Assembly: GCA_045645175.1 (NCBI GenBank)
Contig: JAZRIH010000007.1
Location: 1-32,315, forward strand
Reading direction: 5' to 3'
DNA: 32,315 bases
Origin: Eubacteriales bacterium
Lineage (GTDB): Bacteria; Bacillota; Clostridia; Oscillospirales; CAG-272
Part shown: piece by piece, positions 9,547 to 29,006 of the stretch
How the letters are laid out: each line of letters opens with the position of its first letter
Numbering within the stretch: position 1 is the first letter of the stretch
Program-made: the position numbers and the translations under genes
The notes under the pieces: generated by a model
Database searches by the model: none
What the model was told of the DNA's origin: nothing
Seen by the model: only the letters and a program-made list of their open reading frames with translations

Positions 9547-9691
9547 AGCCAAGGAAAAGGGTGGGAGGTTTGGAGGGCGGGGATGGAGTTGTGCCATGCG
9601 CAACTCCGCGCAGTTGGCAAAGCCAACTGCTGAAAACATTCGGCGTTTGATGATGGTAGCAGTTGCAAAGCAACTGCCTCCCTCCAAGTCT
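9547..9691 (+). repeat. Repeat family A copy 1 (divergent, multi-hairpin variant)
   Basis: AGCCAAGGAAAAGGGTGGG 5' motif and AAAACATTCGGCGTTTGATGATGG core shared with the other copies. Confidence 0.75.
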
Positions 9692-9737
9692 AACTCGGTG
9701 ATAGAAATCTTCACCTTATCAAATATTCAACCATATT

Positions 9738-9746
9738 ATTATACCA
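9738..9746 (-). promoter_or_regulatory. Extended -10 element, likely typA promoter
   Basis: Minus strand TGgTATAAT; -35 is weak. Confidence 0.5.
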
Positions 9747-9808
9747 CAAATCCCGTTTTCAGAAAAGAGTTTTTGCGAAAAAAATCTTAAAAGATTGCAC
9801 AAATCGCA

Positions 9809-9837
9809 TAGACATTTGGAAAGAATTATGCTATAAT
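9809..9837 (+). promoter_or_regulatory. Sigma-A-type promoter
   Basis: TAGACA-17 nt-TATAAT with TGn extension. Confidence 0.7.
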
Positions 9838-9885
9838 AATACAAAATCAGTGATTATGCCCATTTGGGCAGTTGGGAGGATGGCT

Positions 9886-10209
9886 TTGGCATTCTGGAAA
9901 CGTAAACCCAAGGAGGGCAGTCTTGCCTTTCGGATGCAAATGGCGGAGAAGATCTCGGGCAAGCATATCAAGTATGTCACCGAGCGAATTGATAACGAGG
10001 ACATTGTCATCGGCAGAGAAGGCGCACTGAATCTGCGCAACGGCGAGCTGTTGGTCTACGCCTCTGCGGACATCCTTTTCCGTACCCCCGTGGAGTGTCT
10101 CACCGCATCCGAGCTGATGAGTCTGGACGGAGTCATCATCAGCGGCCCCGATATGGCACACGGCGGCGTAGAGCGCACGGTGATTGCCTACTATCTCTAT
10201 TACCGTTAA
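9886..10209 (+). CDS. Small hypothetical protein
   Basis: ORF with coding-like codon use after a strong promoter; GGGAGG at 9874-9879 is best spaced for TTG 9886 (ATG 9880 is the alternative). Confidence 0.75.
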   Translation: MAFWKRKPKEGSLAFRMQMAEKISGKHIKYVTERIDNEDIVIGREGALNLRNGELLVYASADILFRTPVECLTASELMSLDGVIISGPDMAHGGVERTVIAYYLYYR

Positions 10210-10253
10210 ATTGTGAAATTTTTCGGATGATTCAATAAAAATTGATTATCCTA

Positions 10254-10282
10254 TTGAAAAATAAAAATGAATGTAGTATAAT
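10254..10282 (+). promoter_or_regulatory. Sigma-A-type promoter for ireB-ribF-dac
   Basis: TTGAAA-17 nt-TATAAT. Confidence 0.7.
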
Positions 10283-10341
10283 AAAGTGGAAGGCTGTCCT
10301 TAGGGACAACCACTTGTCGCTATCAAAGGAGGAATTTGAAC

Positions 10342-10590
10342 ATGGCTGATCAGCGCACCATTACCTTCTCTCTGCCCGATGAACGGGAGATGGAAATCCG
10401 TACCACCTTGCAGGAGGTTTATAACGCTCTGAAGGAGAAGGGATATAATCCCATCAATCAGATCGTCGGCTATATTCTGTCCGAGGATCCCACCTATATT
10501 ACCAACTATAAGAATGCGCGCAGTCTGATCCGCAAGATCGACCGCGACGAGCTTCTGAACCTGATGGTCAGAAACTATCTGAAGCTGTAA
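10342..10590 (+). CDS. ireB: IreB/ReoM family regulatory phosphoprotein (DUF965)
   Basis: [29 protein letters not shown]...[14 protein letters not shown] signature; AGGAGG RBS. Confidence 0.93.
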
Positions 10591-10600
10591 TCTGTTTCGA

Positions 10601-11542
10601 ATGAACGTATATACCATTTCAACTACCTGTCGGGAAGAGCATCCGAAAGAGGGGCGTTCTTTTGTCGCCCTTGGAAATTTCGACGGTCTGCATCACGGTC
10701 ACGCCGCCATTTTGGAGGCGTGTCGGATGGGGGCGGAGAGATTGGATGCGATCCCCGGCGTTTTTACCTTTTCTACGGGAAAAGCGCCTCGTCTGACTAC
10801 TATGGAGGAGCGTCTTGCTCTTTTTGAGCAGGCAGGAATCGAAGCAGTATGGCTTGCCGACTTCGATGCCCTTCGACATCAGACCCCCGAGGAATTTGTT
10901 TCTATCACCCTTGCCAAGATGGGTGCGGTGGGCGTTGCCTGTGGATTCAACTTCCGCTTCGGAAAAGGTGCATCGGGAGATGTGGATCTCCTAAAGTCTC
11001 TTTGTCAGGCACAAGGGATCGACTGTCAGGTGCTTCCCCCGATTACACGGGATGGGCTGACGGTCAGCTCTACCGAGATCCGTCGCCGTCTGACCGAGGG
11101 AGATATGGAAGGCGTTACCGCACTGATGGGTCGCCCTTGGGCGATCACGGGTAGCGTTGCCCACGGCAGAGCCGTTGGCGGATCGGTGCTTTCCTTTCCC
11201 ACGATGAATCTGCCCATCAACGAGCCCCGTCTGCTTCCCCCGTACGGCGTGTATTTTACCCGTGCCATCATCGACGGCACCGCTTATCCTGCCATCACTA
11301 ATTTGGGTGTGCGCCCCACTTTTGGGGAGAGCGAGCTTCTGGCGGAAACCCATTTGCTTCGTGCAAGCGGCGATTTTTACGAAAAATCGGTGACCGTGGA
11401 ATTTCTCTCCTTCCATCGCCCCGAGCGAGTCTTTGCCACACCTGCCGAATTGGCGGCAACGATTGGGGAGGACGTTGCATCGGCAGAGCGATATTTTCAG
11501 ACTATTTCTACCCCCTCACCTGCTATGGAGGTGACTTTGTGA
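10601..11542 (+). CDS. ribF: Bifunctional riboflavin kinase/FAD synthetase
   Basis: ALGNFDGLHHGH, GFNFRFG, VSSTEIR, FPTMN, NLGVRPTF, ETH motifs. Confidence 0.95.
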   Translation: MNVYTISTTCREEHPKEGRSFVALGNFDGLHHGHAAILEACRMGAERLDAIPGVFTFSTGKAPRLTTMEERLALFEQAGIEAVWLADFDALRHQTPEEFVSITLAKMGAVGVACGFNFRFGKGASGDVDLLKSLCQAQGIDCQVLPPITRDGLTVSSTEIRRRLTEGDMEGVTALMGRPWAITGSVAHGRAVGGSVLSFPTMNLPINEPRLLPPYGVYFTRAIIDGTAYPAITNLGVRPTFGESELLAETHLLRASGDFYEKSVTVEFLSFHRPERVFATPAELAATIGEDVASAERYFQTISTPSPAMEVTL

Positions 11543-12882
11543 ATCGATTGACCAAGGGATTGTCCCTGTTTTTGGCAGTTTTACTGCTGCTGATGCCCAT
11601 GGCAGTATGGGCGAGTGAATCTGAAACCACTCAATCCGCCCAGGAAGCGCCTGCACCCGAGATTAAGGAAGCGGACCTTACTCATGCGGAGAATATTCTG
11701 CTTTACTGCATTGAAACCGATACCATTCTGCGGAAAAAGAATGAGGACAAATCCATTCAGCCTCTTACCGCCACTAAACTCATGACCGCCATTCTTGCCT
11801 ATGAGCGCATCAGCGATCTTAGCGCAGAGATCACCGTCACCAAGGAAATGGTGAAGGGGGTCAGCGGCACCTATTACGGTTTTCAGGCGGGCGATACGGT
11901 TTCGGCTGAGGATCTCATCAAGCTGATGCTCCTGCGCAAAAGCAACGATGCCGCAATGATTCTTGCCTATACCGCCGCAGGAGATTTTGATAGCTTCGTG
12001 GCATTGATGAATGACCGCGCACGCTCTCTTGGTATGGAGCACACCCGATTTACCAACTGCACCGGTTTGGAAGATCCCGAAATGACCACCACCCCTGCCG
12101 ATCTCTTGAAGCTGGCGGTGGAGTTTTACACAAACGATGAACTGTTGGCATGGTCGGGAGCAAGTGATCTCCAATGCGAAAGCTTGGATCGCAAGATCTA
12201 CAGTAACAATTTCTTCCTCAGCCGTTATTACAATGGTACGGGTACCTCCTACCTCTTTGAGGCGGTGAGCGGTATGATCAACGGCGGTACCGATGAGCTG
12301 GGCGATCTGCTCATTACCTCGGCTGCCAATAACGGACTCCACTATATCGTGGTGCTGACAGGCGGAGAAAAGGTGGAAAAACTCCCTGTTTGCTACGATA
12401 TTACCCGTGAACTCATTGAAAAAGATACCTTGAACTTTGCTTTTTCCAAGGTTCTCTTGAGTGCAGAGGTGATCGGCGAGCTGCCCGTTTTCCTGGGCTC
12501 CGGTGCCGATTATGCGGCGGTGTTCCCCAAGGAAACGCTGGAATATTATCTGCCCAAGCACACCGATGCCAAGAAATTCAAGCGTGTAGTCGAGTATACC
12601 GTAGAATCGTTGGAAGCCCCCATTGAGGAGGGCAATACCGTTGGACGGATCAAGATCTACTACGACGGCGTCCTGTTGGGCGAGACCGATCTGGTGGTGC
12701 GCAGCAACATCACCCGAAGCGGTGCAGAATATCGGGTGAAACAGATCACCACATTCCTCAGCAGTAAATTGTTTGCGATCATTGCTCTGTCTGTGGTGGG
12801 TGTAGTTGCTCTCTATTTTGTAGCAATGGCTATTTACCGTGATCAGGTCAAGAAAAAATACGGCAACACGGAGCCGTATTGA
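11539..12882 (+). CDS. D-Ala-D-Ala carboxypeptidase (peptidase S11) homologue with degenerate active site
   Basis: Signal peptide, TKLMTA, NDAA, FVALMNDRARSLGMEHTRFTNCTGL, PBP5-C-like LEAPIEEG region, C-terminal TM; GTG start overlaps ribF stop. Confidence 0.85.
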   Translation: MNRLTKGLSLFLAVLLLLMPMAVWASESETTQSAQEAPAPEIKEADLTHAENILLYCIETDTILRKKNEDKSIQPLTATKLMTAILAYERISDLSAEITVTKEMVKGVSGTYYGFQAGDTVSAEDLIKLMLLRKSNDAAMILAYTAAGDFDSFVALMNDRARSLGMEHTRFTNCTGLEDPEMTTTPADLLKLAVEFYTNDELLAWSGASDLQCESLDRKIYSNNFFLSRYYNGTGTSYLFEAVSGMINGGTDELGDLLITSAANNGLHYIVVLTGGEKVEKLPVCYDITRELIEKDTLNFAFSKVLLSAEVIGELPVFLGSGADYAAVFPKETLEYYLPKHTDAKKFKRVVEYTVESLEAPIEEGNTVGRIKIYYDGVLLGETDLVVRSNITRSGAEYRVKQITTFLSSKLFAIIALSVVGVVALYFVAMAIYRDQVKKKYGNTEPY

Positions 12883-12887
12883 CATAG

Positions 12888-12923
12888 AAAAAGGACTTAC
12901 TCATTTTTGAGTAAGTCCTTTTT
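12888..12923. terminator. Bidirectional intrinsic terminator
   Basis: aaaaaggacttactca-tttt-tgagtaagtccttttt. Confidence 0.88.
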
Positions 12924-12924
12924 G

Positions 12925-13254
12925 TTATAGGATCACACATCCCAAGGCAAAAGCGATCTGCAAAATCAAGAGCAAGGGGACGGTGAGGGTGAATTTCAGA
13001 TGCTTGGTCTTGTGGCGGAAGAACTGCATGCCTATGTATGCACCGAGTGCGCCGTAAAAGAGGGCAATGCCAATGAGATTGGCTTCGGGGATGCGCCACT
13101 TTTTCTTTTTGGCATAGAATTTGTCCAGTCCATAGAGGATAAACGCCACCAGATTTACCAAGGCGAGATAGAGATAGGCAGAGGGGGCGATGGAGCGAAC
13201 AAAGGCGAATACGCCCAGCTGAAAGTCCCAAAGAGTTGCAAGGAGAGCGTCCAT
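12925..13254 (-). CDS. DUF1294 family membrane protein
   Basis: LYGLDKFYAKKKKWRIPE, GALGAYIGMQFFRHKTKH motif. Confidence 0.88.
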   Translation of the reverse strand: MDALLATLWDFQLGVFAFVRSIAPSAYLYLALVNLVAFILYGLDKFYAKKKKWRIPEANLIGIALFYGALGAYIGMQFFRHKTKHLKFTLTVPLLLILQIAFALGCVIL

Positions 13255-13255
13255 C

Positions 13256-14266
13256 TTATACCTGTACGAAGCCCAGCTTCTTGTAAACCTTTCTCATGGT
13301 CTTCTTGGAGCGGTATGCGGCAGTCTCAGCACCCTGCTTCATGATGGATTCCAGATATGCCTTGTCAGCCATCAGACGGTCAAATTCTGCCTTCAGAGGA
13401 GCCAGATTGTCGGCAACGGTTTCGCCTACTGCCAGCTTGAACTCGCCGTAGCCCTTGCCTGCAAATTCTGCCTCGATTGCCTCGTGGCTCTTGCCGGTGA
13501 AGCAAGCGTAGATGTTCATCAGGTTGTTGATGCCGTCCTTGCCGTCTGCGAAGCGTACAACGGTGTCGGAGTCGGTAACGGCACGCTTGAATTTGCGGAT
13601 GATGTCGTCCTTCTTGTCCAGAATAGCAACGTAGCCGTTGGGATTCTCGTCAGACTTGCTCATCTTCTTGGTGGGATCGGAGAGGGACATGATCTTGGCG
13701 CCGGTCTTGGGGATGAAGCCCTCGGGTACCTTGAAGGTGTTGCCGTATACGCCGTTGAAGCGCTCTGCAACGTTTCTTGCCAGCTCGATGTGCTGCTTCT
13801 GGTCAACGCCTACGGGAACCAGATCGGTCTGGTACAGGAGGATGTCAGCCGCCATCAGGGCAGGGTAGGTGAACAGACCTGCGTTGATGTTGTCGGCGTG
13901 CTTCTGAGACTTGTCCTTGAACTGTGTCATACGGGAGAGCTCGCCGAACTGGGTGTAGCAGTTGAGCACCCATGCCAGCTCTGCATGAGCGGGATTGTGG
14001 GACTGTACAAACAGAGTAGACTTGGTGGGATCGATGCCTGCAGCGATGTAAACTGCCAGAGTTTCGTAGGTACGGCGGCGCAGATCTGCGGGGATCTGAC
14101 GGACGGTGATGGCGTGCTGGTCCACCACGCAGTACATACAGTCGTATTCGTCAGCAAGGGCAACCCAGTTCTTGATGGCGCCCAGATAGTTGCCGATGGT
14201 CAGCAGTCCGCTGGGCTGTACGCCCGAAAAAATGACCTTTTTTGCTTCGGTCTGATTGTTTTCCAT
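13256..14266 (-). CDS. trpS: Tryptophanyl-tRNA synthetase
   Basis: FSGVQPSG, TIGNYLGA, YPALMAADILLY, VPVGVDQKQH, KMSKS. Confidence 0.98.
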   Translation of the reverse strand: MENNQTEAKKVIFSGVQPSGLLTIGNYLGAIKNWVALADEYDCMYCVVDQHAITVRQIPADLRRRTYETLAVYIAAGIDPTKSTLFVQSHNPAHAELAWVLNCYTQFGELSRMTQFKDKSQKHADNINAGLFTYPALMAADILLYQTDLVPVGVDQKQHIELARNVAERFNGVYGNTFKVPEGFIPKTGAKIMSLSDPTKKMSKSDENPNGYVAILDKKDDIIRKFKRAVTDSDTVVRFADGKDGINNLMNIYACFTGKSHEAIEAEFAGKGYGEFKLAVGETVADNLAPLKAEFDRLMADKAYLESIMKQGAETAAYRSKKTMRKVYKKLGFVQV

Positions 14267-14307
14267 GATAAAATACCTTCTTTCTTATAAATGAATCTGC
14301 AAAAGCA

Positions 14308-14505
14308 AAAGAAAAAGCCCTTGACATACAGTCAAGGACGGAATGATCCGCGGTGCCACCTTGGTTCGGGAGAGACCTCCCGCGCTTTTGCACGAACATG
14401 CTCTTTGATTGCCTCGGGCGCCCAACGGAGTACTCGCTTCGGTCTGTCGGCTTCCACCACCCCGACTCGCTGTGTGACCCACACGCTCCAACACCTTCAA
14501 CGGCT
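14308..14505 (-). promoter_or_regulatory. T-box riboswitch leader of trpS
   Basis: Minus strand AGCGA and GGTGGAA stem I motifs, candidate TGG specifier, T-box AAGGTGGCACCGCG (14349-14362), terminator ccttgac..gtcaaggg plus T-run. Confidence 0.9.
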
Positions 14506-14514
14506 GATATGGGT

Positions 14515-14543
14515 AGTGTAGCACAAAGCAGGGGAAAAGTCAA
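14515..14543 (-). promoter_or_regulatory. Sigma-A-type promoter for the trpS leader
   Basis: TTGACT-17 nt-TACACT with TGn extension. Confidence 0.7.
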
Positions 14544-14637: not shown

Positions 14638-14666
14638 AGATAGGTATCAGAAAAACGAAAGCGAGG

Positions 14667-16529: not shown

Positions 16530-16555
16530 GTAGAGGAATTTGCGTACGTTATACC

Positions 16556-16665
16556 AAGGGGGAGGAGAAAACCATCTCAAACGCCGAAGTTTTTCTCCTC
16601 CCCCTTCGCTATCACCCTTGGTGATAGCTCATCCCCCTCCACATTCCTTGGCTGGTGCGGTTTCG
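16556..16665 (-). repeat. Repeat family A copy 2
   Basis: Reverse complement reads CAGCCAAGGAA..gctatcacc-aag-ggtgatagc..aagggggaggagaaaa-ACTTCGGCGTTTGAGATGG-ttttctcctccccctt. Confidence 0.9.
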
Positions 16666-16682: not shown

Positions 16683-17714
16683 CTATTGTATCGGCTCGCC
16701 GTGGAAATCTCGTCGGCAGAGCTTTTCAAACACCATTCTCCTTTGGGATCCGTTAGAGAGGCTTTCCAATCGGCGCAACAAGGGGAGATAGCGCATCAGC
16801 GCGCGATCGTACAGCTCAAAGAAGCTATCGTGGGACACTTTCCCCGTATAGGGATCGCTCCATTTTTGATGGCGCAGATTGGCGGGATCGGGATAGTATC
16901 GGCTCTCACCCAAAAAGAGGGGGGAAAGATAGGGGGCGCAAAACGGTCGCTCGATGATCTTAGCAATCCTCGCCTTGCATCCGTGGGGATCGTAGAGGAT
17001 GCCCGTGGCAAGGTGGACCGCATGAAAGGCACGTCCCACTGAAGCGGGAGAGAGGTGGATAGAGTACACACGGCAGATAGTTTGTGACAGGAGCAGGGAC
17101 AGTGCGCGACGCTCCACGGGGGAGAGGTGGTAAGCGCTGGGGCGAGGGAGGCAGGCAAGGGGAATCTCCAAGCTTCGTTCCACTGTCAAACGGCTCAGAT
17201 CCGATTCCAAGGCATTGTGGACGGCAAAGCTCCTTGCCGATGGCTCCACCCCTGTACGGGCATAGATGAATGCGTGGGTGTGGCTGTCCAAGAGATAATG
17301 CCCCAAAAATCCGCAGGCATAGGCAAGCGCACAAAGACGACCATCGATGGAATGGTCGTCTTTTCTGTAAGGGTTAGTATTACTATAGATCGGAACTGCA
17401 CCAGCCAAGGAAAAGGGTGGATGGTGCGGAAGGAGGGGAAAATCATCTTTTATCCCATCTGCCGTGTCAAACAACTCACCAAGCAGGGTGGGGATCTTCT
17501 TCGTGTGGAGCAGGGAGCTGAGCTTTTTTCTCCCGATGGCGGCGGGGGGATAAAAGAGGAACAGATCGGGTCCCTGCATTCCCGTGAAAAAGGCGTGGGG
17601 ATGGGTGAGAATGGCATGAGAGAACTCGCCCACGGGCAGTCCGGCCTTCACAATATCCTTGAGCATCCTCAGACATTCCTCGGCAAAGGATGCGTGGGTC
17701 CAAAAAGCGGGCAA
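16683..17714 (-). CDS. Zinc-dependent phospholipase C family protein
   Basis: N-terminal PAFWTH, GMQGPDLF, GFLGHYLLDSHTH, HNALES metal-ligand pattern; TTG start after GAGGTG. Confidence 0.75.
   Translation of the reverse strand: MPAFWTHASFAEECLRMLKDIVKAGLPVGEFSHAILTHPHAFFTGMQGPDLFLFYPPAAIGRKKLSSLLHTKKIPTLLGELFDTADGIKDDFPLLPHHPPFSLAGAVPIYSNTNPYRKDDHSIDGRLCALAYACGFLGHYLLDSHTHAFIYARTGVEPSARSFAVHNALESDLSRLTVERSLEIPLACLPRPSAYHLSPVERRALSLLLSQTICRVYSIHLSPASVGRAFHAVHLATGILYDPHGCKARIAKIIERPFCAPYLSPLFLGESRYYPDPANLRHQKWSDPYTGKVSHDSFFELYDRALMRYLPLLRRLESLSNGSQRRMVFEKLCRRDFHGEPIQ
17391..17450 (+). repeat. Repeat family A copy 3 (partial, intragenic)
   Basis: cggaactgcacCAGCCAAGGAAAAGGGTGG..gcggaaggaggggaaaa matches copies 2 and 5. 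Confidence 0.8.
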
Positions 17715-17742
17715 AAAATCACCTCGAAACAGAATGATTCTG

Positions 17743-19059
17743 TCAATCCTCGATGATACCGGTGAGCCGACCGTCCCGAATTTCGGTGAGTCGGAGATTG
17801 AAAAGCTTGCCGTGGAGGGAAGCCTCAGAGGGGATCGCCACATCCAGGAAGGATGCGGTGTGTCCGATGGCGTAGCCATCCCGTTCCTCCTCAAAGAGAA
17901 CGGGGAGCACTTTGCCGATCTGCGCCTGCAACACACGTTCCCGACCTTGCTTGCAGACGGCGGTGAGGGCGTGTACGCGCTCCTCCTTCACCGCTTCGGG
18001 GACTTGTCCCTTCATGTCGGCGGCTTCGGTGCCGGGACGGCGGGAGTAGGGGAAGACGTGACAATCCAAGAGAGAAAGGGAGTCCACGTGGGCGCAGGTG
18101 GCGGCGAAATCCTCGTCGCTCTCACCGGGGAATCCCACGATTACATCGGCGGTGAAGCAGGCGTCGGGGAATGCGGCACGGATGGCATCCACGTTTCGCT
18201 TTACCATGGAAGTGTTGTAGCGGCGGCGCATGGCGGCAAGGGTCTTGTCGCATCCGCTCTGCAACGAGAGATGGAAGTGGGGGGCAAGATGGACCACCGA
18301 GCGGAGTTTTTCAGTATAAGCAGGGGTGAGGAGAGAGGGATCCAGCGAGCCCAGTCGGATGCGCGTGAGTCCCGGGAGCTTGTCCAGCGCGTACAGCAGA
18401 TCAGGGAGCTTGACTCCGTCCAGATCCTTGCCGTATGCCGAGATCTCGATGCCCGTAAGGACGATCTCCCGATAGCCGGCATCAATGAGGATCTTGGCTT
18501 CCTCCACCACCTCGTCCAAAGGCTTGGAGCGGATAGGACCGCGGGCGCGGGGGATGATGCAGTAGGCGCATTTGGACTCGCAACCGTCCTCGATCTTCAG
18601 ATAAGCGCGGGTGCGCTCACTGCGGTGGATGGTCATGGGCTCGAAGTCGGCGCCCTCCAGAGAGGGGACCTCCACGATGGGGGCACGGTCGACATAAGAG
18701 CCGTCCACGTAGGCAAGGGCAAACTCAGCGGCACGGCGCTTTTCGCGGTTTCCGCAAACGAATTTTACGCCGGGGAGGGTAGCCAGCTTTTCGCCGTCTA
18801 CCTGGGCGTAGCATCCCGTGACGATGATGCAGGCATCGGGGTTTTTATGGTTTGCACGGCGGATCATCTGGCGAACCTTGCGCTCGCCTTCGGCGGTCAC
18901 CGAGCAGGTGTTGATGAGATAAATATCGGCAGACTCCTGAAAGGGGAGCTGGGTAAGTCCTGCACGAATCAGCTCCTCGGAGAGGGCTTGGGATTCGTAT
19001 TGGTTGACCTTGCATCCCAGGGTGCAGATGGCAAAGGTAGCGGTGCGTGTAGCGTTCAT
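17743..19059 (-). CDS. mtaB: tRNA t6A37 methylthiotransferase MtaB (radical SAM)
   Basis: TLGCKVNQYES, INTCSVT, VTGCYAQ, RTRAYLKIEDGCESKCAYC (CxxxCxxC), IVGFPGE. Confidence 0.92.
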   Translation of the reverse strand: MNATRTATFAICTLGCKVNQYESQALSEELIRAGLTQLPFQESADIYLINTCSVTAEGERKVRQMIRRANHKNPDACIIVTGCYAQVDGEKLATLPGVKFVCGNREKRRAAEFALAYVDGSYVDRAPIVEVPSLEGADFEPMTIHRSERTRAYLKIEDGCESKCAYCIIPRARGPIRSKPLDEVVEEAKILIDAGYREIVLTGIEISAYGKDLDGVKLPDLLYALDKLPGLTRIRLGSLDPSLLTPAYTEKLRSVVHLAPHFHLSLQSGCDKTLAAMRRRYNTSMVKRNVDAIRAAFPDACFTADVIVGFPGESDEDFAATCAHVDSLSLLDCHVFPYSRRPGTEAADMKGQVPEAVKEERVHALTAVCKQGRERVLQAQIGKVLPVLFEEERDGYAIGHTASFLDVAIPSEASLHGKLFNLRLTEIRDGRLTGIIED

Positions 19060-22147: not shown

Positions 22148-22245
22148 ATGTGGGGCGTTGCCCCACGCCCCAGCAGGAACCTTTTGAAAAAGGTTCCTGC
22201 ACCTCCCAAACTTCTGAAAATGCCCCACAAATTCTTGTGGGGCAT
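22148..22245 (+). repeat. Repeat family B copy 2
   Basis: Three hairpins aligning with reverse complement of 7515-7613. Confidence 0.8.
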
Positions 22246-22277
22246 GAGTTTTATTAGACTTCCCCTTCAGCTGGATT

Positions 22278-22373
22278 CAGCCAAGGAAAGGGGTAGGGAG
22301 GAGCCGTCACCTGCGGTGACGGCGGAGGGAAGGGGAAAAACTTCGGCGTTTGAGATGGTTTTCCCCTTCCCTC
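22278..22373 (+). repeat. Repeat family A copy 4
   Basis: CAGCCAAGGAAA..gccgtcacc-tgc-ggtgacggc..gagggaaggggaaaa-ACTTCGGCGTTTGAGATGG-ttttccccttccctc. Confidence 0.9.
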
Positions 22374-22453
22374 GGTTTGGCATGGGACTTTTCGATACGC
22401 TCAAGGCGGCAAATACTTGCCGCCTTCTTTTATAATCTATCCCTCCACAACAA

Positions 22454-24651: not shown

Positions 24652-24844
24652 TGATCAAACCTCTTTCTGAAAATTTCCGTATTCCGTATACGGTGGGGGC
24701 GGAGTAAAACTGTCAGCAGAAATTAAGTAAGGGAAAATCCATTGACAGAATTTGTTTGTACAAGTAGTATATCACAAAAGCAATAAATCTGCAATATGTT
24801 TAGCAAATTAGATTGAATTTTCTAAATAGTTCTGTAAAATCAGC

Positions 24845-24874
24845 AAAACCACCGCAGATTTGCGGTGGTTTTTT
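24845..24874. terminator. Intrinsic terminator between the paralogues
   Basis: aaaaccaccgca-gatt-tgcggtggtttt. Confidence 0.8.
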
Positions 24875-24883
24875 GGTTAAAAG

Positions 24884-27031
24884 TTATCTGTTATACAGCT
24901 GGAATTCGTACAGACGGATCGCACCGGTGCGGTTGCTGTCTACATTATAGCCGCGGAGCATAATGTAACGTGCGCTCTGGGTGCCGATGTCAAAGGATAC
25001 GATATCCTCGTCGCAGTCCACCTGATAATCCACGATCTTCCAATTGTGGCCGTCATCCGAGATGGAAATGGTCCATTCGGTCATGTTGGGCTGGTTTACT
25101 TGGGTCTTGGTGTTGTAGATGGTGTAGGTGTTGAAGGTCTTCTTCTCGCCCAGATCCATAACAATCCATTGCTTGGTGCCGTCCAGAGAGTAGGTCTTGT
25201 CCTTGGCAGTGCCTACGGAGGAGTACCATCTGGTGGTGAGATCGCCGTCGATGAGCTTTTCAGCTGCTTCGGTATCACTCGTCTGACCGGATTTCTGAGG
25301 AACGGTTGCGCCTGCCATCAGGTTTTCGCCTTCGGTGACGGGGGTGTCCAGTTTATCAGCGGTCTTGTCGCCGATGAGCTTATCGGTGATCATAGGATAA
25401 TTGGGATTGGGCACGCCGGGAAGATTTTCGGTCATGAAGTTGCCTTCGTAATTTGCAAAGCCATTGAAGTCCCAAGCGCCCGACTTGAAGTCTTCCTCGT
25501 ACTGCTTACGGATGTCCTCGATGCAATCGTAGCCGGTCACTTCCTTGACGATCTGGTTGAAGACGCTGTCCTTATCGTAGGGATTGTCTTCGCCGCCGGT
25601 GAGTCTGCCGCCCTTGATCTCGAAGTTGATGATGTCGATCAGACCGTTCACACGGTTGCCGTTTGCATCCTGGGTGGTAGGCCAACGATAGTCCATGTAA
25701 GCGAAGAACCACAGACAGCCGTTGCCGTAAGGATGCCAAGTGGTTTTGTCATCGCTGGGCCAGAAGTAGAGAGAGGAGTCATTCTTGTTATACTTCTTGA
25801 TCTGGTCGGCATAGCACCATTCAAAGTAACGGAAACGTCCGTAGGATGCCAGGTTTTCAGTCCACCAGCCGCCGTCGTATTTGAAGTTATACTGCTGTAC
25901 CGAGTGAGTCATCTCGTGAGAGAGGTAGCCAAGGTCTGTGGGGTTTTTGCTGGCGTAATCTGTGCTGACAACGATCTGCTGACCCGATGCATAGGCAACG
26001 CCGTTGTAGGTGGAGTCTGCGTGGAAGGTGATGGTCTTGGGCTCAGAGCCGGTGCCCCATCTTGCCATCAGACGGGGATATACCTCGTAGAACTGATCGA
26101 TCATGTTCTGCTTGTAGTCGGGATCGGTGATGTAATCCCAGTCGCCTGCCAGCATCAGATGGTAGGTGTCGCTGCGGGGGTCGGTGCCTTCCTCAATGGT
26201 AAAGGGGATGGACTGCATGCAAGAGCCATTGTTAATGAAATTGATGTAATAATTGCCGGGCTCAGCGGTGTAGGGAACGGTGAACTTAACGGTACCTACG
26301 TAGCTACCGTCCGCAGCCAGCTTGGGCACCAGATTCTTGTGATGGATGTATCCGTCATCGGTGGAGGAGGCAAGCTTGGTGACCGATACTTTGTAAGTAA
26401 CGGGAGCGGAGGAGTGGAAGGTGAAATTGATGAACTCACCCATCTTTGCGGTTACCGAGGAATAGTCGGAGCTCATGCGCACCTTGAATTCCTGATAATA
26501 AACAAACAGTCTGCCGGTGCGGGCATTGAACTGGATCACGGCGCCAAGGGATTTGAGTCCCTTCAGAGCGTTAACATTGGTCTTTTTGAAAACGCTGTCC
26601 TTGCTCTGATAATTGACACGGTAGCAGACGATCTTGTTGGTGTTGTAATACTTGAAGTATTCGGGATAATCATCCTCGTTGGACAGCATGGAGATCAGAT
26701 CGTCGCCGTTTCCAACGTAATCGTAGAGGGAGAAGTCGATTCCGGAATAAGCCGACCATTCTGCGCCCGAGGTGACCATGGAATAGTTGTCGTAGGTTTC
26801 GGTCGTGGGATTGGACTTTTGAACCACCAGCTTGGTAGAGGTCAGATCCTCGTTGAGTTTTACGTTGTGTTCTACGGAGCTGGAGGGAGGGGTGTTTGTG
26901 TTAGGCTGCGAAGTGGTGGTAGAGGCGGTGGTGGTGTCGGCAGGCTGCTCAGTAGACGTGCACGCTGTAAAGGCAGTCAGCGATGTCGTCAGTAGGCTAG
27001 CCAGCAGTAATAGGAGTGCTGTTTTTTTCAT
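24884..27031 (-). CDS. Tandem paralogue: HEXXH metallopeptidase/discoidin lipoprotein
   Basis: ATG 27031 after GAGGT; lipobox FTAC; SHEMTHSVQ..WWTENLA; colinear similarity with 22492-24651. Confidence 0.85.
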   Translation of the reverse strand: MKKTALLLLLASLLTTSLTAFTACTSTEQPADTTTASTTTSQPNTNTPPSSSVEHNVKLNEDLTSTKLVVQKSNPTTETYDNYSMVTSGAEWSAYSGIDFSLYDYVGNGDDLISMLSNEDDYPEYFKYYNTNKIVCYRVNYQSKDSVFKKTNVNALKGLKSLGAVIQFNARTGRLFVYYQEFKVRMSSDYSSVTAKMGEFINFTFHSSAPVTYKVSVTKLASSTDDGYIHHKNLVPKLAADGSYVGTVKFTVPYTAEPGNYYINFINNGSCMQSIPFTIEEGTDPRSDTYHLMLAGDWDYITDPDYKQNMIDQFYEVYPRLMARWGTGSEPKTITFHADSTYNGVAYASGQQIVVSTDYASKNPTDLGYLSHEMTHSVQQYNFKYDGGWWTENLASYGRFRYFEWCYADQIKKYNKNDSSLYFWPSDDKTTWHPYGNGCLWFFAYMDYRWPTTQDANGNRVNGLIDIINFEIKGGRLTGGEDNPYDKDSVFNQIVKEVTGYDCIEDIRKQYEEDFKSGAWDFNGFANYEGNFMTENLPGVPNPNYPMITDKLIGDKTADKLDTPVTEGENLMAGATVPQKSGQTSDTEAAEKLIDGDLTTRWYSSVGTAKDKTYSLDGTKQWIVMDLGEKKTFNTYTIYNTKTQVNQPNMTEWTISISDDGHNWKIVDYQVDCDEDIVSFDIGTQSARYIMLRGYNVDSNRTGAIRLYEFQLYNR

Positions 27032-27153
27032 GTGCAATACCTCGTTTTGTGAATTTCCGTATGCCAAATTTGGTTTGTGCAAATAGTATACCACAAACCA
27101 GTCCAATACGCAATACCTTTGTGAAAGTAGGCTGAAATTTTTATCGTCGCGGC

Positions 27154-27181
27154 AAAAAAACTGCCGCAAAATTGCGGCAGT
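27154..27181 (-). terminator. Intrinsic terminator after the flippase gene
   Basis: actgccgcaa-aa-ttgcggcagt followed by T7 on minus strand. Confidence 0.8.
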
Positions 27182-28746
27182 CAGGCAGAGGGGAGCGGAG
27201 AGGGGAGATTTTCCTTTCGTGTGATTTTCCCAATCGCCTTGGGAAGCGTCAGGAAGGCCACGTAAAGCAGAGCGATGATGATGATGTGCGCCGACAGCAC
27301 CCATCCATCGGTGGCGAAGGGGAGAGTAGCGGCAAAGATGAAGCGCGCCAGAGTGGTGGCGGCGAAAATGGCGAGGATGGGGCGTACCACCATCCACGGG
27401 GAAAGGCGGATGTTCAGCACGTCGATCAGGCGCATCACCGACAGAGAGGCGTTGATCAGCTCGCAGGCGAAGATCTCGATGATGTAACCGTAGATTCCCA
27501 CGCGGGGGAGCAAAAACAGCACGATGAGTACCGACATCGCCGCATCTAAAATGTTCACCCGCATACAAAAGAGCTGTTCGTCCAGCCCCTTGAGGATGCT
27601 GTCCACGGCGGTGTCCAGATACATGACCGGCACCAAGCGGGCTAAAAGTCCGATGTATTTCGCCGCCTCGGTGCTGTTGCAGATCACCTGCCCCAGCTCA
27701 CGGGAGAGGCAGAGGAAGATTCCCGCCGTGCCGATGCCCATGGCAAGGACGAAGTGAAAGACCCGCAGGGTGATCTGTTCCACACCCCGATGATCCTTCG
27801 CCGCCCGTTTTTCGGCAATCTCGGGGATGAGCAGATTGCAAAAGGGGGAGAGAAAGGCGTAAGGGAACATGATGATGGGTAGTGCCATTCCTTGCATCAG
27901 CCCGTAGGTGGAGAGGGCGGTGGTTTGGGAGTTGCCTTGCTTTTTCAGCCCCCACGGAATGAGGAGATGCTCGATGGTCACCAATCCCTGCCGCAGATAG
28001 GAGGAGAAGGCAACGGGGAGGGCAATGCCCAGGAGCTTTTTGCGCATGGGCGCGATCTCTCGCGGATCGGCAGAGCGTCCCCGATGGAATTTCCCCAGAT
28101 CCCGCAGATAAAGGACGAAGCAGTAGAGAAAGGAAAAGAGATTGCCCAGAACGCCTCCTGCCACCACCCATAGACAGGCGATCTCCAAGCCACCCGAGGT
28201 GAAGAGGGTGAGGAGGAGCATGGTTGCCCCGATGCGGAGGGCTTGCTCGAAGATCATGGTGAGGGCGTTTTTGCTCACCCGACGGACGGCGGTGAAGTAT
28301 CCGCTGAGGGCGGAGGTGAGGGCTTGAAAGGGAAGGGAGAGGGCGAGCAGACGCAGGGAGGGGATGGTGCGTGCATCCGAGAGCAGACTTTGCCCGATAG
28401 GCTGGGCAAGGACAAAGAGGAGCACTCCGGCAAGGAGTCCGAAGGAAAGGCTGTACAGGATGGACACTCGCATGGCGGCGAGGATGCGTCCGCTTTCTTT
28501 GGCAGGATCGCATTTGGCATCGCCCATGGCTTCGGAGACCAGTCGGGTGGATGCCAGCGTCACCGCCGAGGTGGCAAGGATGATGGCGAGCCCGTAGACC
28601 GTTCCCGTGAGGGTGAAGAGTCCCATGCCGTCTGCCCCCAGACGGTCGGTGAGATAGACGTTGAAATAGACCCCCGTGGTGCGCATGAGCAGCGACGTGA
28701 GGGTAAGCAGGAGGGTGTTTTTTAGAAATAGCTTGAATTTTGCCAT
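27181..28746 (-). CDS. spoVB: SpoVB-like MOP/MATE-superfamily flippase (polysaccharide biosynthesis protein)
   Basis: FLKNTLLLT..LMR..VYLTDRLGADGMGLF N-terminus, many TM helices, YGLMQGMALP, DSILKGL. Confidence 0.75.
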   Translation of the reverse strand: MAKFKLFLKNTLLLTLTSLLMRTTGVYFNVYLTDRLGADGMGLFTLTGTVYGLAIILATSAVTLASTRLVSEAMGDAKCDPAKESGRILAAMRVSILYSLSFGLLAGVLLFVLAQPIGQSLLSDARTIPSLRLLALSLPFQALTSALSGYFTAVRRVSKNALTMIFEQALRIGATMLLLTLFTSGGLEIACLWVVAGGVLGNLFSFLYCFVLYLRDLGKFHRGRSADPREIAPMRKKLLGIALPVAFSSYLRQGLVTIEHLLIPWGLKKQGNSQTTALSTYGLMQGMALPIIMFPYAFLSPFCNLLIPEIAEKRAAKDHRGVEQITLRVFHFVLAMGIGTAGIFLCLSRELGQVICNSTEAAKYIGLLARLVPVMYLDTAVDSILKGLDEQLFCMRVNILDAAMSVLIVLFLLPRVGIYGYIIEIFACELINASLSVMRLIDVLNIRLSPWMVVRPILAIFAATTLARFIFAATLPFATDGWVLSAHIIIIALLYVAFLTLPKAIGKITRKENLPSPLPSA

Positions 28747-28777
28747 GATAGATCCCCCACGATGGGTTTTTACAGAG

Positions 28778-28807
28778 ATTCTATGAAAAAAACTGCAAAA
28801 CTATGTC
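28778..28807 (-). promoter_or_regulatory. Sigma-E-like promoter of the spoVB-like gene
   Basis: Minus strand gacATAg..CATAGAAT with 16 nt between ATA and CATA. Confidence 0.5.
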
Positions 28808-28835
28808 AATATCTTGGAAGATTTTTCGGAGAAGA

Positions 28836-28865
28836 CTTGAATTTTTCGGAAGTTTATGATATACT
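28836..28865 (+). promoter_or_regulatory. Sigma-A-type promoter upstream of metG
   Basis: TTGAAT-18 nt-TATACT with TGn extension. Confidence 0.55.
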
Positions 28866-28911
28866 AACATATGAATCAGTTTTGTCGATAAGTTTTTCTT
28901 TCGAATGGCCT

Positions 28912-29006
28912 CAGCCAAGGAAAAGGGTGGGGAGGAGCCGGCGCAGAGGCGACGGCGGAGGGGAGGGGAAAAACTTCGGCGTTTGAGATGGTTTTCCCCT
29001 CCCCTC
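28912..29006 (+). repeat. Repeat family A copy 5
   Basis: CAGCCAAGGAAAAGGGTGG..gccggcgc..gcgacggc..gaggggaggggaaaa-ACTTCGGCGTTTGAGATGG-ttttcccctcccctc. Confidence 0.9.

What the first reader, a model, noticed from the sequence alone, without database searches (positions are those of the whole stretch)
9547..29006. Dispersed structured repeat (family A): covarying stems around an invariant 19-nt loop, 5 copies in 20 kb
Seen: copies at 9547-9691(+), 16556-16665(-), 17391-17450(+, partial), 22278-22373(+), 28912-29006(+). Layout: (C)AGCCAAGGAA, purine tract, small hairpin, then a 15-16 bp stem closing ACTTCGGCGTTTGAGATGG, which is identical in copies 2, 4 and 5. Stem sequences differ but pairing is kept: gccgtcacc/ggtgacggc vs gctatcacc/ggtgatagc; gagggaaggggaaaa, gaggggaggggaaaa and aagggggaggagaaaa are each matched by their own perfect complement. 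The 5' GCCAAG could also pair with loop CTTCGGC (bulged pseudoknot). Copies lie in leaders (typA antisense, metG sense), between convergent genes and inside a CDS, so it is not a gene-specific riboswitch. Inference: a non-autonomous mobile element or structured RNA/ssDNA whose loop is read by a trans-acting enzyme (e.g. HUH/RAYT-type nuclease, RT or ribozyme core) encoded elsewhere. I do not recognise it as a named family.
Basis: partly seen in the sequence, partly recalled or inferred. Interest (0 to 1): 0.8.

Follow-up and report, generated by a model that had tools for sequence, protein, structure and literature searches.

The report
Triple-helix-forming core of a mobile repeat
The repeat is real: it is the folded core of a small non-coding mobile DNA element of gut Clostridia, and its sequence changes show that one strand folds into a long three-stranded helix, a structure rarely supported in nature.

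Summary
Observation confirmed. All five copies lie where stated. The genome (G000) holds 30 loop matches against 0 for the reversed pattern. No Rfam family matches.

The 5' purine tract is the mirror image, not the complement, of the stem's purine arm. In 52 gapless 78-nt copies, 690 of 728 cells obey purine-motif triplet rules (G*GC, A*AT, T*AT, T*CG). Slid registers give 33-57%, and 0 of 5000 shuffles reach the observed count. The 17-bp stem covaries at 16 of 17 pairs. The box-loop pseudoknot fits the sequence but is invariant.

The core sits inside a miniature transposon, modally 140 bp, with imperfect terminal inverted repeats. It inserts at terminator-like stem-loops and duplicates the whole hairpin: 26 of 166 copies against 0.25 expected. 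Copies 4 and 5 are missing from every orthologous locus examined in congeners.

Distribution is patchy: 21-88 copies in 10 of 20 genus members and 0-2 in the other 10. No RAYT-type transposase was found in 4 of 5 genomes examined, and no matching autonomous element was found.

DNA or RNA, and the fold's role, remain open. I favour single-stranded DNA. The nearest known things are the E. coli TMECO/BoxC triplex repeats and hairpin-targeting IS1182-type transposition.

The parts
9547..9688 (+). Copy 1 (elaborated, partly decayed). Box 9547-9555; third strand 9555-9568; turn 9569-9571; purine arm 9572-9583; accessory hairpins 9585-9607, 9610-9630 and 9659-9677; loop homologue 9636-9656 (one inserted base); 3' arm remnant 9678-9685.
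   Evidence: read directly. The mirror relation holds at 11 of 12 positions counted by eye, including a T opposite the arm's C. The accessory hairpins share an AGTT...AACT foot.
16555..16653 (-). Copy 2. Box 16653-16645; third strand 16645-16631; inserted hairpin 16628-16608; purine arm 16607-16591; loop 16590-16572; pyrimidine arm 16571-16556.
   Evidence: The stem has 16 bp. The third strand aatgtggagggggat mirrors the arm gaagggggaggagaaaa, with T opposite A three times. It lies directly 3' of the ORF 16683..17936 (-).
17403..17442 (+). Copy 3, the 5' half only. Box 17403-17411; third strand 17411-17424; turn 17425-17427; purine arm 17428-17442. There is no loop and no 3' arm.
   Evidence: The mirror holds at 13 of 14 positions by eye. 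It lies inside the long ORF 16683..17936 (-), antisense to it. Contigs of two DNA runs join 17375 to 17539 (table 5, letters between not known).
22246..22404 (+). Copy 4 with its arms. 5' arm 22246-22278; box 22279-22287; third strand 22287-22301; inserted hairpin 22303-22323; purine arm 22325-22339; loop 22340-22358; pyrimidine arm 22359-22373; 3' arm 22374-22404 with the TTTTCGATAC end motif.
   Evidence: The stem has 15 bp and all 14-15 triplets are compatible (T*AT at 22294). Folded as DNA: -29.4 kcal/mol, z -6.8. Folded as RNA: -46.7 kcal/mol, z -4.0. No box or loop occurs in the orthologous loci of 11 of 11 congeners.
22220..22245 (.). Terminator-like hairpin just upstream of copy 4 (loop CAAATTCTTG).
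   Evidence: Its partner on the far side is 22405-22424. The stems differ, so this is not a clean duplication at this copy.
22405..22424 (.). Terminator-like hairpin GGCGGCAAATACTTGCCGCC just downstream of copy 4, followed by a T-run.
   Evidence: The same hairpin type is the duplicated target in several other copies.
28876..29032 (+). Copy 5, whole inserted unit (about 157 bp). 5' arm with terminal repeat tCAGTTTTGTCGATAAG from 28876; box 28913-28921; third strand 28921-28935; imperfect inserted hairpin 28937-28956; purine arm 28958-28972; loop 28973-28991; pyrimidine arm 28992-29006; 3' arm to 29032.
   Evidence: The unit is absent from the orthologous metG leader in 5 of 5 congeners. Flanking TATGAA (28870-28875) and TATGCAA (29033-29039) are a possible short target duplication.

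Best explanation
[quoted passage not shown] The distance between its target duplications is modally 140 bp.

Mobility. The element carries imperfect 14-17-bp terminal inverted repeats (about CAGnCTGTmGAyAAA). It has no gene of its own, so it must be moved in trans. It lands at the feet of stem-loops, mostly intrinsic-terminator hairpins at gene 3' ends. It duplicates the whole hairpin, giving hairpin - element - hairpin - T-run. This is shown by sequence. I infer that the mover is a DDE transposase that attacks extruded stem-loops, as modelled for IS1272 of the IS1182 family. That enzyme was not found.

Fold. When the G-rich strand is unpaired, the core folds in three parts.
- A 15-17-bp purine/pyrimidine stem. 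This is shown by covariation.
- The 5' purine tract lies back, antiparallel, on the purine arm and forms about 14 reverse-Hoogsteen triplets (G*GC, A*AT, T*AT, T*CG). This is a class I intrastrand purine-motif triplex, also shown by covariation.
- The invariant box GCCAAG(G) pairs with CTTCGGC of the loop and caps the triplex like an H-type pseudoknot. This is compatible with the sequence but not shown.

Molecule and role. I infer that the molecule is DNA. Purine-motif triplexes are established for DNA and contested for RNA. I also infer, weakly, that the compact fold collapses the roughly 108-nt interior. That would bring the two ends together, or make the element present the stem-loop shape that its transposase handles.
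For: Triplex.
- 22 G000 copies score 12.09 of 14 compatible positions against their own stem and 9.97 against other copies' stems. 0 of 5000 permutations reach this.
- 74 copies from other genomes score 8.24 of 10 against 7.22, again 0 of 5000.
- In 52 gapless copies, 690 of 728 cells (94.8%) are compatible in the mirror register and 33-57% when slid by 1-3. The mirror partner has the highest mutual information in 11 of 14 columns, with values like those of the Watson-Crick pairs.
- By my tally of the triplet types listed, the third strand uses T opposite A-T pairs in about 80 of 279 cells. That fits only the G-rich strand.

Stem. 16 of 17 pairs change on both sides, and 0 of 500 shuffles reach the observed values.

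Mobility.
- G005 copies show a locus-specific hairpin on both sides of the element.
- 26 of 166 copies have an exact flank repeat of 14 nt or more, against 0.25 with shuffled partners. The repeats sit at fixed distances from the core.
- 12 of 18 measured units are 139-144 bp. Terminal-repeat identity is 9.33 of 14, against 6.94 and 5.0 in controls.
- Copy 5 is absent in 5 of 5 congeners and copy 4 in 11 of 11.
- Copy numbers in the genus are bimodal. In the order sample, 16 of 401 genomes have any hit.

Literature.
- Wan et al. 2017 (PMC5678879; abstract and sections 21, 22 and 29 read) report that IS1272 targets stem-loops just downstream of genes. Their model pathway b duplicates the whole stem-loop.
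- Holder et al. 2015 (PMC4666352; introduction, section 15 and passages read) describe intrastrand purine triplex repeats in bacteria. They state that the purine motif does not form in RNA.

A second family. An unrelated repeat family in G000 has the same tract-turn-arm-loop-arm layout and mirror relation: 8 copies with 3 stem variants, each mirrored.
Against: - No autonomous partner with these terminal repeats was found. The IS1182 model hit nothing in G000, G005 or G016. The one IS1182-like copy in G003 has other ends and no hairpin duplication.
- The hairpin duplication is clear in only a minority of copies: 26 of 166 exact, and 1 of 22 in G000. Generic terminal-repeat scans in G000 were negative.
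- The box and loop are conserved across lineages whose arms differ. That is the reverse of an ordinary MITE. It suggests the core, not the ends, is what matters. The loci were collected by exact loop match, so loop invariance is partly by construction.
- Nothing here shows that the triplex forms physically, or that the molecule is DNA.
- Optional hairpins at fixed positions and a tandem array of short units look more like a structured RNA.
- Insertion between the hairpin and T-run of terminators would put the core into 3' UTRs. Copy 5 sits in the metG leader in the sense orientation.
Confidence: 0.55

Rival explanations
1. The functional molecule is RNA. The core is transcribed, either as part of the 3' UTR or leader into which the element lands, or from a promoter of its own. 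It folds into an H-type pseudoknot whose loop 1 forms a purine-motif major-groove triple helix. Its job could be to block 3' exonucleases, bind a protein, or cleave itself. The element spreads it as cargo.
For: - The topology (box, tract, arm, loop, arm) is that of an H-type pseudoknot, where RNA triple helices usually sit (Brown 2020, PMC7583470, passages read).
- Optional hairpins occur at three fixed positions.
- A tandem array of short-form units lies in L014.
- The box and loop are kept while the arms differ.
- Landing between hairpin and T-run makes read-through into the core likely.
- Convergent-gene contexts number 32 against 13 divergent.
- Copy 5 lies in the metG leader in the sense orientation.
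- G.T outnumbers A.C in the stem, 12 to 4.
Against: - Purine-motif triplexes with RNA strands are contested or excluded (Holder 2015 introduction; Brown 2020 passage).
- In tandem-gene contexts orientation is 17 sense against 15 antisense, though the ORF calls were crude.
- No consistent promoter appears upstream.
- G.U-type pairs are rare, 16 of 697 stem cells by my sum of the per-pair counts. That is about as rare as the 18 unpaired cells.
- The shuffle z-score is stronger with DNA parameters, -6.8 against -4.0.
- No Rfam match.
Confidence: 0.3
2. It is a host-kept DNA site rather than a selfish element. The folded or duplex core would bind a chromosome-organising or replication protein, which would explain the conserved box and loop and the crowding near the replication origin.
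For: - In the closed genome G001, 53 of 55 copies lie between 563 kb and 1060 kb, around dnaA at 903 kb. The GC skew flips at about 900-950 kb.
- Both strands are used about equally, 24 against 31.
- Holder 2015 report that TMECO also clusters near the origin (passage).
Against: - Half of the genus lacks it: 10 of 20 genomes have 0-2 hits, several of them 97-100% complete.
- Orthologous sites are empty.
- Terminal repeats and target duplications mark transposition.
- Only one closed genome could be examined for clustering.
Confidence: 0.08
3. It is a REP/REPIN-like element moved by a RAYT or IS200/IS605-type HUH tyrosine transposase that reads the hairpin loop on single-stranded DNA.
For: A hairpin with a conserved single-stranded loop, high copy number, intergenic location and use of both orientations.
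Against: - PF01797 was found in 1 of 5 genomes searched, and not in G000, G001, G005 or G016. The control genomes gave hits, so the search works.
- The elements have terminal inverted repeats and target duplications, which HUH elements do not make.
- Orientation shows no bias with respect to replication direction in G001: by my count (+) against 23 (-) to the left of the origin.
Confidence: 0.03
4. There is no triplex. On this reading the mirror likeness comes from low-complexity G/A sequence, from shared descent of whole copies, or from a G-quadruplex alternative to the hairpin.
For: Both tracts are G-rich and many copies have four G-runs. Copies are related by descent, which inflates shuffle tests.
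Against: - Slid registers keep composition and relatedness, yet drop from 94.8% to 33-57%.
- The forward (non-mirror) control is much weaker.
- G-to-A changes are mirrored column by column, including run lengths such as 2,5|5,2 in copy 2.
- T appears only opposite A or C of the arm.
- An unrelated second family shows the same rule.
Confidence: 0.04

Closest known systems
TMECO / BoxC / PIT intrastrand triplex repeats of E. coli and other Proteobacteria (Holder et al. 2015, PMC4666352; Hoyne et al. 2000 as cited there)
   Same: - A dispersed intergenic repeat made of three consecutive blocks that can fold as a purine-motif triplex on one strand.
- Both orientations are used.
- Many copies in some genomes and none in close relatives.
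- Clustering near the origin is reported for TMECO, and I saw it in G001.
   Different: - TMECO is class II (pyrimidine, purine, then reverse-Hoogsteen block) with 9-nt blocks, short loops and a conserved sequence.
- Family A is class I, with about 14 triplets whose sequence varies and covaries.
- Family A has a 19-nt invariant loop and an invariant 5' box that can form a pseudoknot.
- Family A sits inside a transposon with terminal repeats and occurs in gut Clostridia.
- 'Clostrid' and 'Firmicutes' do not occur in that paper's main text. Its supplements were not seen.
IS1272 / IS1182-family structure-dependent transposition (Wan et al. 2017, PMC5678879)
   Same: - The target is a stem-loop of any sequence, usually just downstream of a gene.
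[quoted passage not shown]
   Different: - IS1272 itself replaced the stem-loop and made no duplication in the three new insertions they describe.
- No IS1182-type transposase with matching ends was found here.
- Family A is non-coding.
Bacterial MITEs in general (Correia, RUP, BOX and bcr1 are recalled by me, not checked here)
   Same: Short, non-coding, with terminal inverted repeats and target duplication, intergenic, in lineage-specific bursts, and able to fold.
   Different: The interior, not the ends, is the most conserved part across lineages. The interior encodes a covarying triplex. The target duplication is a whole hairpin of 17-33 bp rather than a fixed few bases.
H-type pseudoknot RNA triple helices (telomerase RNA, SAM-II and preQ1-II riboswitches, ENE-type elements; Brown 2020, PMC7583470)
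   Same: The strand order matches: the loop-1 strand lies in the major groove of stem 2 next to a second helix.
   Different: Known RNA examples use a U-rich third strand parallel to the purine strand (U*A-U, C+*G-C). Here the third strand is G/A/T-rich and antiparallel to the purine strand.
Polypurine reverse-Hoogsteen hairpins, synthetic DNA clamps (seen only as a title and abstract start in the listing)
   Same: Two antiparallel mirror-repeat purine tracts joined by a short turn clamp a pyrimidine strand by Watson-Crick plus reverse-Hoogsteen bonds.
   Different: Those are designed oligonucleotides that act in trans. Here the pyrimidine strand is in cis and the whole thing is a natural genomic repeat.
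REP/REPIN with RAYT
   Same: Dispersed, structured, extragenic repeats.
   Different: No RAYT gene was found in 4 of 5 genomes. There is no GTAG-type REP pair. Terminal repeats and target duplications are present.

Membership tests
MITE (non-autonomous DDE-type transposon) | Short, with no coding capacity | tested here: met
   Units between the duplications measure 132-172 bp, and 12 of 18 are 139-144 bp. The interior is the folded core.
MITE (non-autonomous DDE-type transposon) | Terminal inverted repeats | tested here: met
   In 18 delimited units the ends match at 9.33 of 14 positions, against 6.94 and 5.0 in controls. One unit is a perfect 16-bp repeat pair around a hairpin (L209). Generic scans in G000 were non-specific.
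MITE (non-autonomous DDE-type transposon) | Target-site duplication | tested here: met
   26 of 166 copies have an exact direct repeat of 14 nt or more between their own flanks, against 0.25 with shuffled partners. 16 of the 26 contain a hairpin stem of 5 bp or more.
MITE (non-autonomous DDE-type transposon) | Insertion polymorphism (empty sites) | tested here: met
   Copy 5 is absent in 5 of 5 congeners and copy 4 in 11 of 11.
MITE (non-autonomous DDE-type transposon) | An autonomous element with the same ends | tested here: not met
   All 15 hits with up to 2 mismatches to the end motif in G005 that I looked at are family A units or their deletion derivatives. MAGs often lose insertion sequences, so this is weak evidence.
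Intrastrand purine-motif triplex repeat (ITxF class I) | Block order: reverse-Hoogsteen block, purine block, pyrimidine block on one strand | tested here: met
   Layout read. Class definitions are from Holder 2015.
Intrastrand purine-motif triplex repeat (ITxF class I) | Triplet rules G*GC and A/T*AT along the stem | tested here: met
   690 of 728 cells are compatible, and slid registers give 33-57%.
Intrastrand purine-motif triplex repeat (ITxF class I) | The triplex forms physically | not testable with these tools
   This needs CD, NMR or footprinting on oligonucleotides.
Element moved by an IS1182-family transposase | The target is a stem-loop and the stem-loop is duplicated (model pathway b) | tested here: met
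   against sections 22 and 29 of PMC5678879.
Element moved by an IS1182-family transposase | An IS1182 transposase in carrier genomes with matching ends | tested here: not met
   NF033551 gave 0 matches in G000, G005 and G016. G003 has a broken copy with different 32-nt ends. G001 has only hits below the cut-off.
REP/REPIN-RAYT | A Y1 (RAYT) transposase gene in the carrier genome | tested here: not met
   PF01797 was found in 1 of 5 genomes (G013 only), and 6 of the 14 control genomes gave hits.
Any Rfam family (riboswitch, ribozyme, sRNA) | A covariance-model score at or above the gathering score | tested here: not met
   0 matches over the whole window. The best sub-threshold hits on 22200-22450 are hairpin-only miRNA models at about 20 bits against gathering scores of 60-100.
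H-type pseudoknot with box-loop helix | Covariation of the box with the loop | tested here: inconclusive
   All 6 pairs are invariant in 41 sequences. There is 1 compensatory variant (AGGCAAGGA with ACTTCGCC) in 203 distinct copies, and several uncompensated single changes.

The most novel reading that the evidence does not exclude
The fold works as RNA. It would then be the first natural all-RNA purine-motif (reverse-Hoogsteen) triple helix: about 14 layers inside an H-type pseudoknot, spread through gut Clostridia by a transposon as cargo. It might protect 3' ends or act as a new small ribozyme or protein-binding module. An equally bold variant is that the folded single-stranded DNA is itself recognised, or even catalytic, in the element's own transposition.
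Probability: 0.3. Interest if true: 0.88.

Novelty: new variant of a known kind. Interest (0 to 1): 0.72.

Why it matters
Intramolecular purine triplexes have been known in the test tube for decades, but their biological reality is still debated. The known bacterial example, TMECO/BoxC, has a fixed sequence, so evolution says nothing about its fold. In family A the stem differs from copy to copy, and the third strand follows it triplet by triplet as tightly as the Watson-Crick partner does. That is evolutionary evidence that the three-stranded fold itself is under selection.

This gives a natural, sequence-diverse test set for triplex rules, including T*CG at pyrimidine interruptions. It also gives a defined system in which to ask what a triplex does in a cell. 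Separately, it documents a transposon that lands on terminator hairpins and duplicates them. Such insertions rewire gene 3' ends in abundant gut Clostridia and break metagenome assemblies, since many copies lie at contig ends.

Tried and rejected
- Rfam. The whole window at gathering scores gave nothing. The stretch 22200-22450 at E up to 10 gave only sub-threshold, hairpin-like hits.
- RAYT/IS200 reading. Rejected.
- IS1182 partner. Not found.
- A degenerate end-motif scan of G000 was no better than its reversed control, 610 against 584 hits. A 6-mer enrichment test on the flanks of 18 G000 copies showed no inverted-repeat signal. The terminal repeats became clear only in the better-kept copies of G005 and others.
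- An all-against-all search of G000 ORFs for multi-copy genes gave 53 ORFs with paralogues. None stood out, and I did not scan them for families.
- Plasmid and phage collections gave no match to a full unit.
- The locus of copy 4 is a mosaic of several repeat modules and gave no clean junction.
- The locus of copy 2 was not bridged in relatives.
- Sequencing runs: no RNA holder is listed, and DNA holders have small shares only.
- Laying contigs of four DNA runs at 85% likeness gave joints 9447 to 9729 (one contig, X4) and 17375 to 17539 (X1, X2), with the letters between not known. I take these only as a hint that relatives lack copy 1 and the copy 3 stretch.
- Orientation relative to genes used crude longest-ORF calls.
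- GC skew of G001 was sampled at 20 stretches only.
- Paper searches. No paper holds the loop sequence. Of the 15 listed among 170 papers with at least 3 of my triplex/MITE terms, none held 'miniature inverted-repeat'. Searches for terminator-duplicating elements led to PMC5678879. PMC6199540 was looked at (passages only) and added nothing.
- Supplements of Holder 2015 (genome lists of triplex motifs) were not seen and might list Clostridia.
- The statements that T*CG is the accepted triplet for a CG interruption, and that ISfinder lists direct repeats of 0-60 bp for IS1182, are my recollection and come from no call.

Full report
**1.

The five copies are at the stated places. Copies 2, 4 and 5 share the identical 19-nt loop ACTTCGGCGTTTGAGATGG, closed by 15-16-bp stems of different sequence. 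Each begins with (C)AGCCAAGGA followed by a purine tract, and each has a small inserted hairpin that also covaries. Copy 1 is an elaborated form with three extra hairpins and a one-base insertion in the loop. Copy 3 is a 5' half that stops exactly where the loop should start.

The window's genome (G000: 2,009,004 bases, 254 contigs, 75% complete) has 30 places matching the loop with up to 2 mismatches. The reversed control pattern has none. With the 5' box as a second anchor I count about 40 copies, several of them at contig ends. No Rfam family reaches its gathering score in the window. A permissive scan of copy 4 gave only hairpin-type hits at about 20 bits against gathering scores of 60-100. 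No paper in the library contains the loop sequence.

**2.

Read 5' to 3', the tract after the box is the reverse, not the complement, of the stem's purine arm. T often stands where the arm has A. In copy 2 the tract aatgtggagggggat stands against the arm gaagggggaggagaaaa.

I tested this three ways.
- In 22 distinct full G000 copies, the tract matches the reversed arm of its own stem at 12.09 of 14 positions under the purine-motif rules (G*G, A*A, T*A, T*C). It matches the arms of other copies at 9.97. None of 5000 permutations reaches the observed total. The forward, non-mirror control gives 9.23 against 8.73.
- In 74 distinct copies from other genomes the result repeats: 8.24 of 10 against 7.22, and 0 of 5000.
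- In 52 copies of exactly 78 nt, which align without gaps, 690 of 728 cells (94.8%) are compatible in the register i+j=48. After sliding by 1-3 columns the figure falls to 33-57%. In 11 of 14 columns the mirror partner has the highest mutual information of all 14 arm columns. The values (0.45-0.91 bits in the variable columns) are like those of the Watson-Crick pairs.

Triplet use in the 74-copy set is G*GC 45%, A*AT 21%, T*AT 8% and T*CG 2%.

The stem itself is beyond doubt. In 41 sequences, 16 of 17 pairs change on both sides, 97.4% of cells pair, 0 of 500 shuffles reach the observed values, and slid controls give 43-63%.

**3. Which strand folds, and in what topology**

The tract runs antiparallel to the purine arm. 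The order is third strand, purine arm, pyrimidine arm. This is the class I intrastrand purine-motif triplex in the scheme of Holder et al. 2015.

The complementary strand could in principle form a pyrimidine-motif triplex. But wherever the G-rich strand has T opposite an A-T pair, the complement would place A there, which fits no pyrimidine-motif triplet. By my tally of the triplet types listed, that is about 80 of 279 such cells. It would also need a majority of protonated C+*GC triplets. In the stem, G.T outnumbers A.C by 12 to 4. So the G-rich strand is the folding strand.

The third strand starts directly after the box, next to the loop end of the stem. This puts GCCAAG(G) beside CTTCGGC of the loop, which gives 6 pairs with a bulged C, or 7 with an A.C. 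The whole has the strand order of an H-type pseudoknot.

That helix cannot be tested by covariation. All 6 pairs are invariant in alignment A3. Among 203 distinct copies there is one compensatory variant (AGGCAAGGA with ACTTCGCC) and a handful of uncompensated ones.

**4. The core sits inside a transposon**

Better-preserved copies in a congener (G005) show the full unit:
- a locus-specific hairpin;
- tCAG(T/C)CTGTCGA(T/A)AAACTATAAATTTAGAA(T/C)GCCGCC;
- the core;
- ...GACTTTTTCGACAC(G/T)CTGA;
- the same hairpin again;
- a T-run.

Across 166 copies with both flanks in hand (22 from G000, 30 from G005, 114 from other loci), 26 have an exact direct repeat of 14 nt or more between their own flanks. 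Shuffled partners give 0.25. The repeats lie at fixed distances, mostly 32-41 nt before the box and 41-48 nt after the loop. 16 of the 26 contain a stem of 5 bp or more.

In 18 delimited units the length is 132-172 bp, and 12 of them are 139-144 bp. The two ends are inverted repeats, matching at 9.33 of 14 positions against 6.94 and 5.0 in controls. One 58-nt unit is just a perfect 16-bp repeat pair around a hairpin (L209).

In the window, copy 5 is a 157-bp insertion (28876-29032) into the metG leader. It is absent from the orthologous site in 5 of 5 congeners. Copy 4 is absent from 11 of 11 orthologous loci. Copies in G000 are more decayed: only 1 of 22 has an exact flank repeat of 14 nt or more.

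**5. Distribution**

All are MAGs titled Clostridia, Eubacteriales, Oscillospiraceae, Candidatus Flemingiibacterium, or 'uncultured' Lachnospiraceae, Ruminococcus or Clostridium. They come from horse, deer, sheep, goat, buffalo and human gut.

Within the window's genus the counts are bimodal. Ten genomes, G000 included, have 21-88 hits. The other ten have 0-2, among them genomes 97-100% complete. The carriers are the closer relatives of G000. In an even sample of the order, 16 of 401 genomes have any hit, mostly single one-mismatch hits. This is the pattern of a mobile element with lineage-specific bursts, not of a housekeeping RNA.

**6. Who moves it**

No Y1/RAYT transposase was found in G000, in the closed genome G001 (55 copies), in G005 (52 copies) or in G016.

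Wan et al. 2017 describe structure-dependent transposition of IS1272, an IS1182-family DDE element. Its target is a stem-loop of any sequence, just downstream of genes. Their model pathway b yields duplication of a whole stem-loop of variable length (abstract and sections 21, 22 and 29 read). That is what I see here.

The IS1182 model, however, hit nothing in G000, G005 or G016. The one broken copy in G003 has other ends and no hairpin duplication. G001 has only hits below the cut-off. The transposase is therefore inferred, not found. MAGs commonly lose insertion sequences.

**7. DNA or RNA**

For DNA:
- Purine-motif triplexes are established for DNA. They are reported as excluded or contested for RNA (Holder 2015 introduction; Brown 2020 passage).
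- G.U-type pairs are as rare as other mismatches in the stem, 16 against 18 of 697 cells by my sum of the per-pair counts.
- Orientation is unbiased relative to flanking tandem genes, 17 against 15 on crude ORF calls.
- Orientation is also unbiased relative to replication in G001.

For RNA:
- The pseudoknot topology.
- Optional hairpins at three fixed positions, sharing an AGTT...AACT foot.
- A tandem array of short-form units downstream of a gene (L014).
- The box and loop are kept while the arms differ between lineages.
- Insertion between hairpin and T-run would carry the core into 3' UTRs. With bidirectional terminators that holds for either orientation.

No RNA run could be found. I put DNA at roughly 55-60% and RNA at about 30%.

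**8. What the fold is for**

This is inferred only. A 140-bp unit is stiff, and a compact triplex-pseudoknot would collapse the 108-nt interior. That would let the two ends meet, or let the element adopt the stem-loop shape that a structure-specific transposase handles.

The conservation of box and loop across different arm sets argues that something reads them directly. Part of that conservation is by construction, because the loci were collected by exact loop match.

An unrelated repeat family in G000 supports selection on the fold as such. It has 8 copies, a 5-nt loop CTTGG and a box CTAAGG. It shows the same tract-turn-arm-loop-arm layout, with three stem variants, each mirrored.

**9. Comparison and verdict**

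The nearest known thing is the TMECO/BoxC/PIT repeat, which is class II, has 9-nt blocks, a fixed sequence, and occurs in Proteobacteria. Family A differs in six ways: class, length, covariation, the conserved loop and box, its transposon setting and its host range.

It passes the tests for a MITE except for the missing autonomous partner. It passes the sequence tests for a class I intrastrand triplex. It fails the tests for REP/RAYT and for every Rfam family.

I rate it a new variant of known kinds. Its interest is well above that of an ordinary repeat, because it offers evolutionary evidence for a long purine-motif triple helix.

Noticed in passing
G000 contigs C98, C125 (2), C136 (2), C164, C185, C241 (not in the window): A second, unrelated repeat family has the same architecture. 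Its order is ...GCGACTAAGGA, a mirrored purine tract, TTACTTTT, a purine arm, a 5-nt loop CTTGG and a pyrimidine arm. I found 8 copies and 3 stem variants, each with its own mirrored tract. It has longer conserved flanks of its own.
   Followed up: partly
window 22220-22245 and 22405-22424; also many G000 and G005 loci: There is a family of terminator-like hairpins with a conserved loop (CAAATACTTG or near it) and freely varying, complementary stems. They are often preceded by ...AAGAACTTTTATAAA. They are frequent landing sites of family A. The pattern occurs 11 times in G000.
   Followed up: partly
G001 (closed 1.78-Mb chromosome), 563-1060 kb: 53 of 55 family A copies crowd into the 0.5 Mb around dnaA (903 kb), where the sampled GC skew changes sign. 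Other repeated 16-mers are concentrated there too.
   Followed up: partly
L005, L044, L067, L072, L106, L109, L110, L126-L128 (G001): In G001 the same core sits in a different and larger chassis. It has long conserved arms containing a GCAAGGGGCTTCGCCCCTTGC hairpin, arranged as long inverted repeats. A sub-type replaces the 5' half of the loop by a hairpin (GGCGGCGTTTGAGATGG).
   Followed up: no
L014:6100-6540: A tandem array of four short-form units (about 110-135 nt each) lies between two genes. The stems are only 4-5 bp and a small hairpin takes the place of the long triplex. Some units have a duplicated box.
   Followed up: no
window 9585-9607, 9610-9630, 9659-9677 and other G000 copies: Optional accessory hairpins are inserted at three fixed places (in the turn, before the loop, after the loop). 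They share an AGTT...AACT stem foot. 9 of 16, 3 of 4 and 4 of 4 occurrences of three such hairpin types lie within family A copies.
   Followed up: partly
window 28862-29095: Copy 5 landed between a -10-like TATACT and the metG start codon. The metG leader should therefore carry the whole unit in the sense orientation. Relatives have a different small hairpin in that leader.
   Followed up: no
L169 (G005): The two copies of the duplicated hairpin differ by an inverted loop (TTCG against CGAA), as if the palindrome had flipped after duplication.
   Followed up: no
L205, L206 (G005); G000 C32, C57: These are deletion derivatives that keep the ends and the box but lack the loop, or in which a hairpin replaces the loop.
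   Followed up: no
G000 C45, C65, C116, C121, C125, C191 and many contigs of congeners: Copies lie within the first or last 50 bases or so of contigs. The repeat breaks short-read assemblies.
   Followed up: no
L214:574-2078 (G003): A frameshifted IS1182-like element with 32-nt inverted ends (AAGGGGTGACCGAATGGGAGCCGTTGACAAAC). The inner part of those ends loosely resembles the family A end motif.
   Followed up: partly
window 17376-17538: Contigs of two DNA runs join 17375 to 17539, skipping 163 nt that include copy 3, inside the long ORF 16683..17936 (-). That ORF's weak phospholipase C match spans the same stretch. Whether the ORF is an intact gene was not tested.
   Followed up: no
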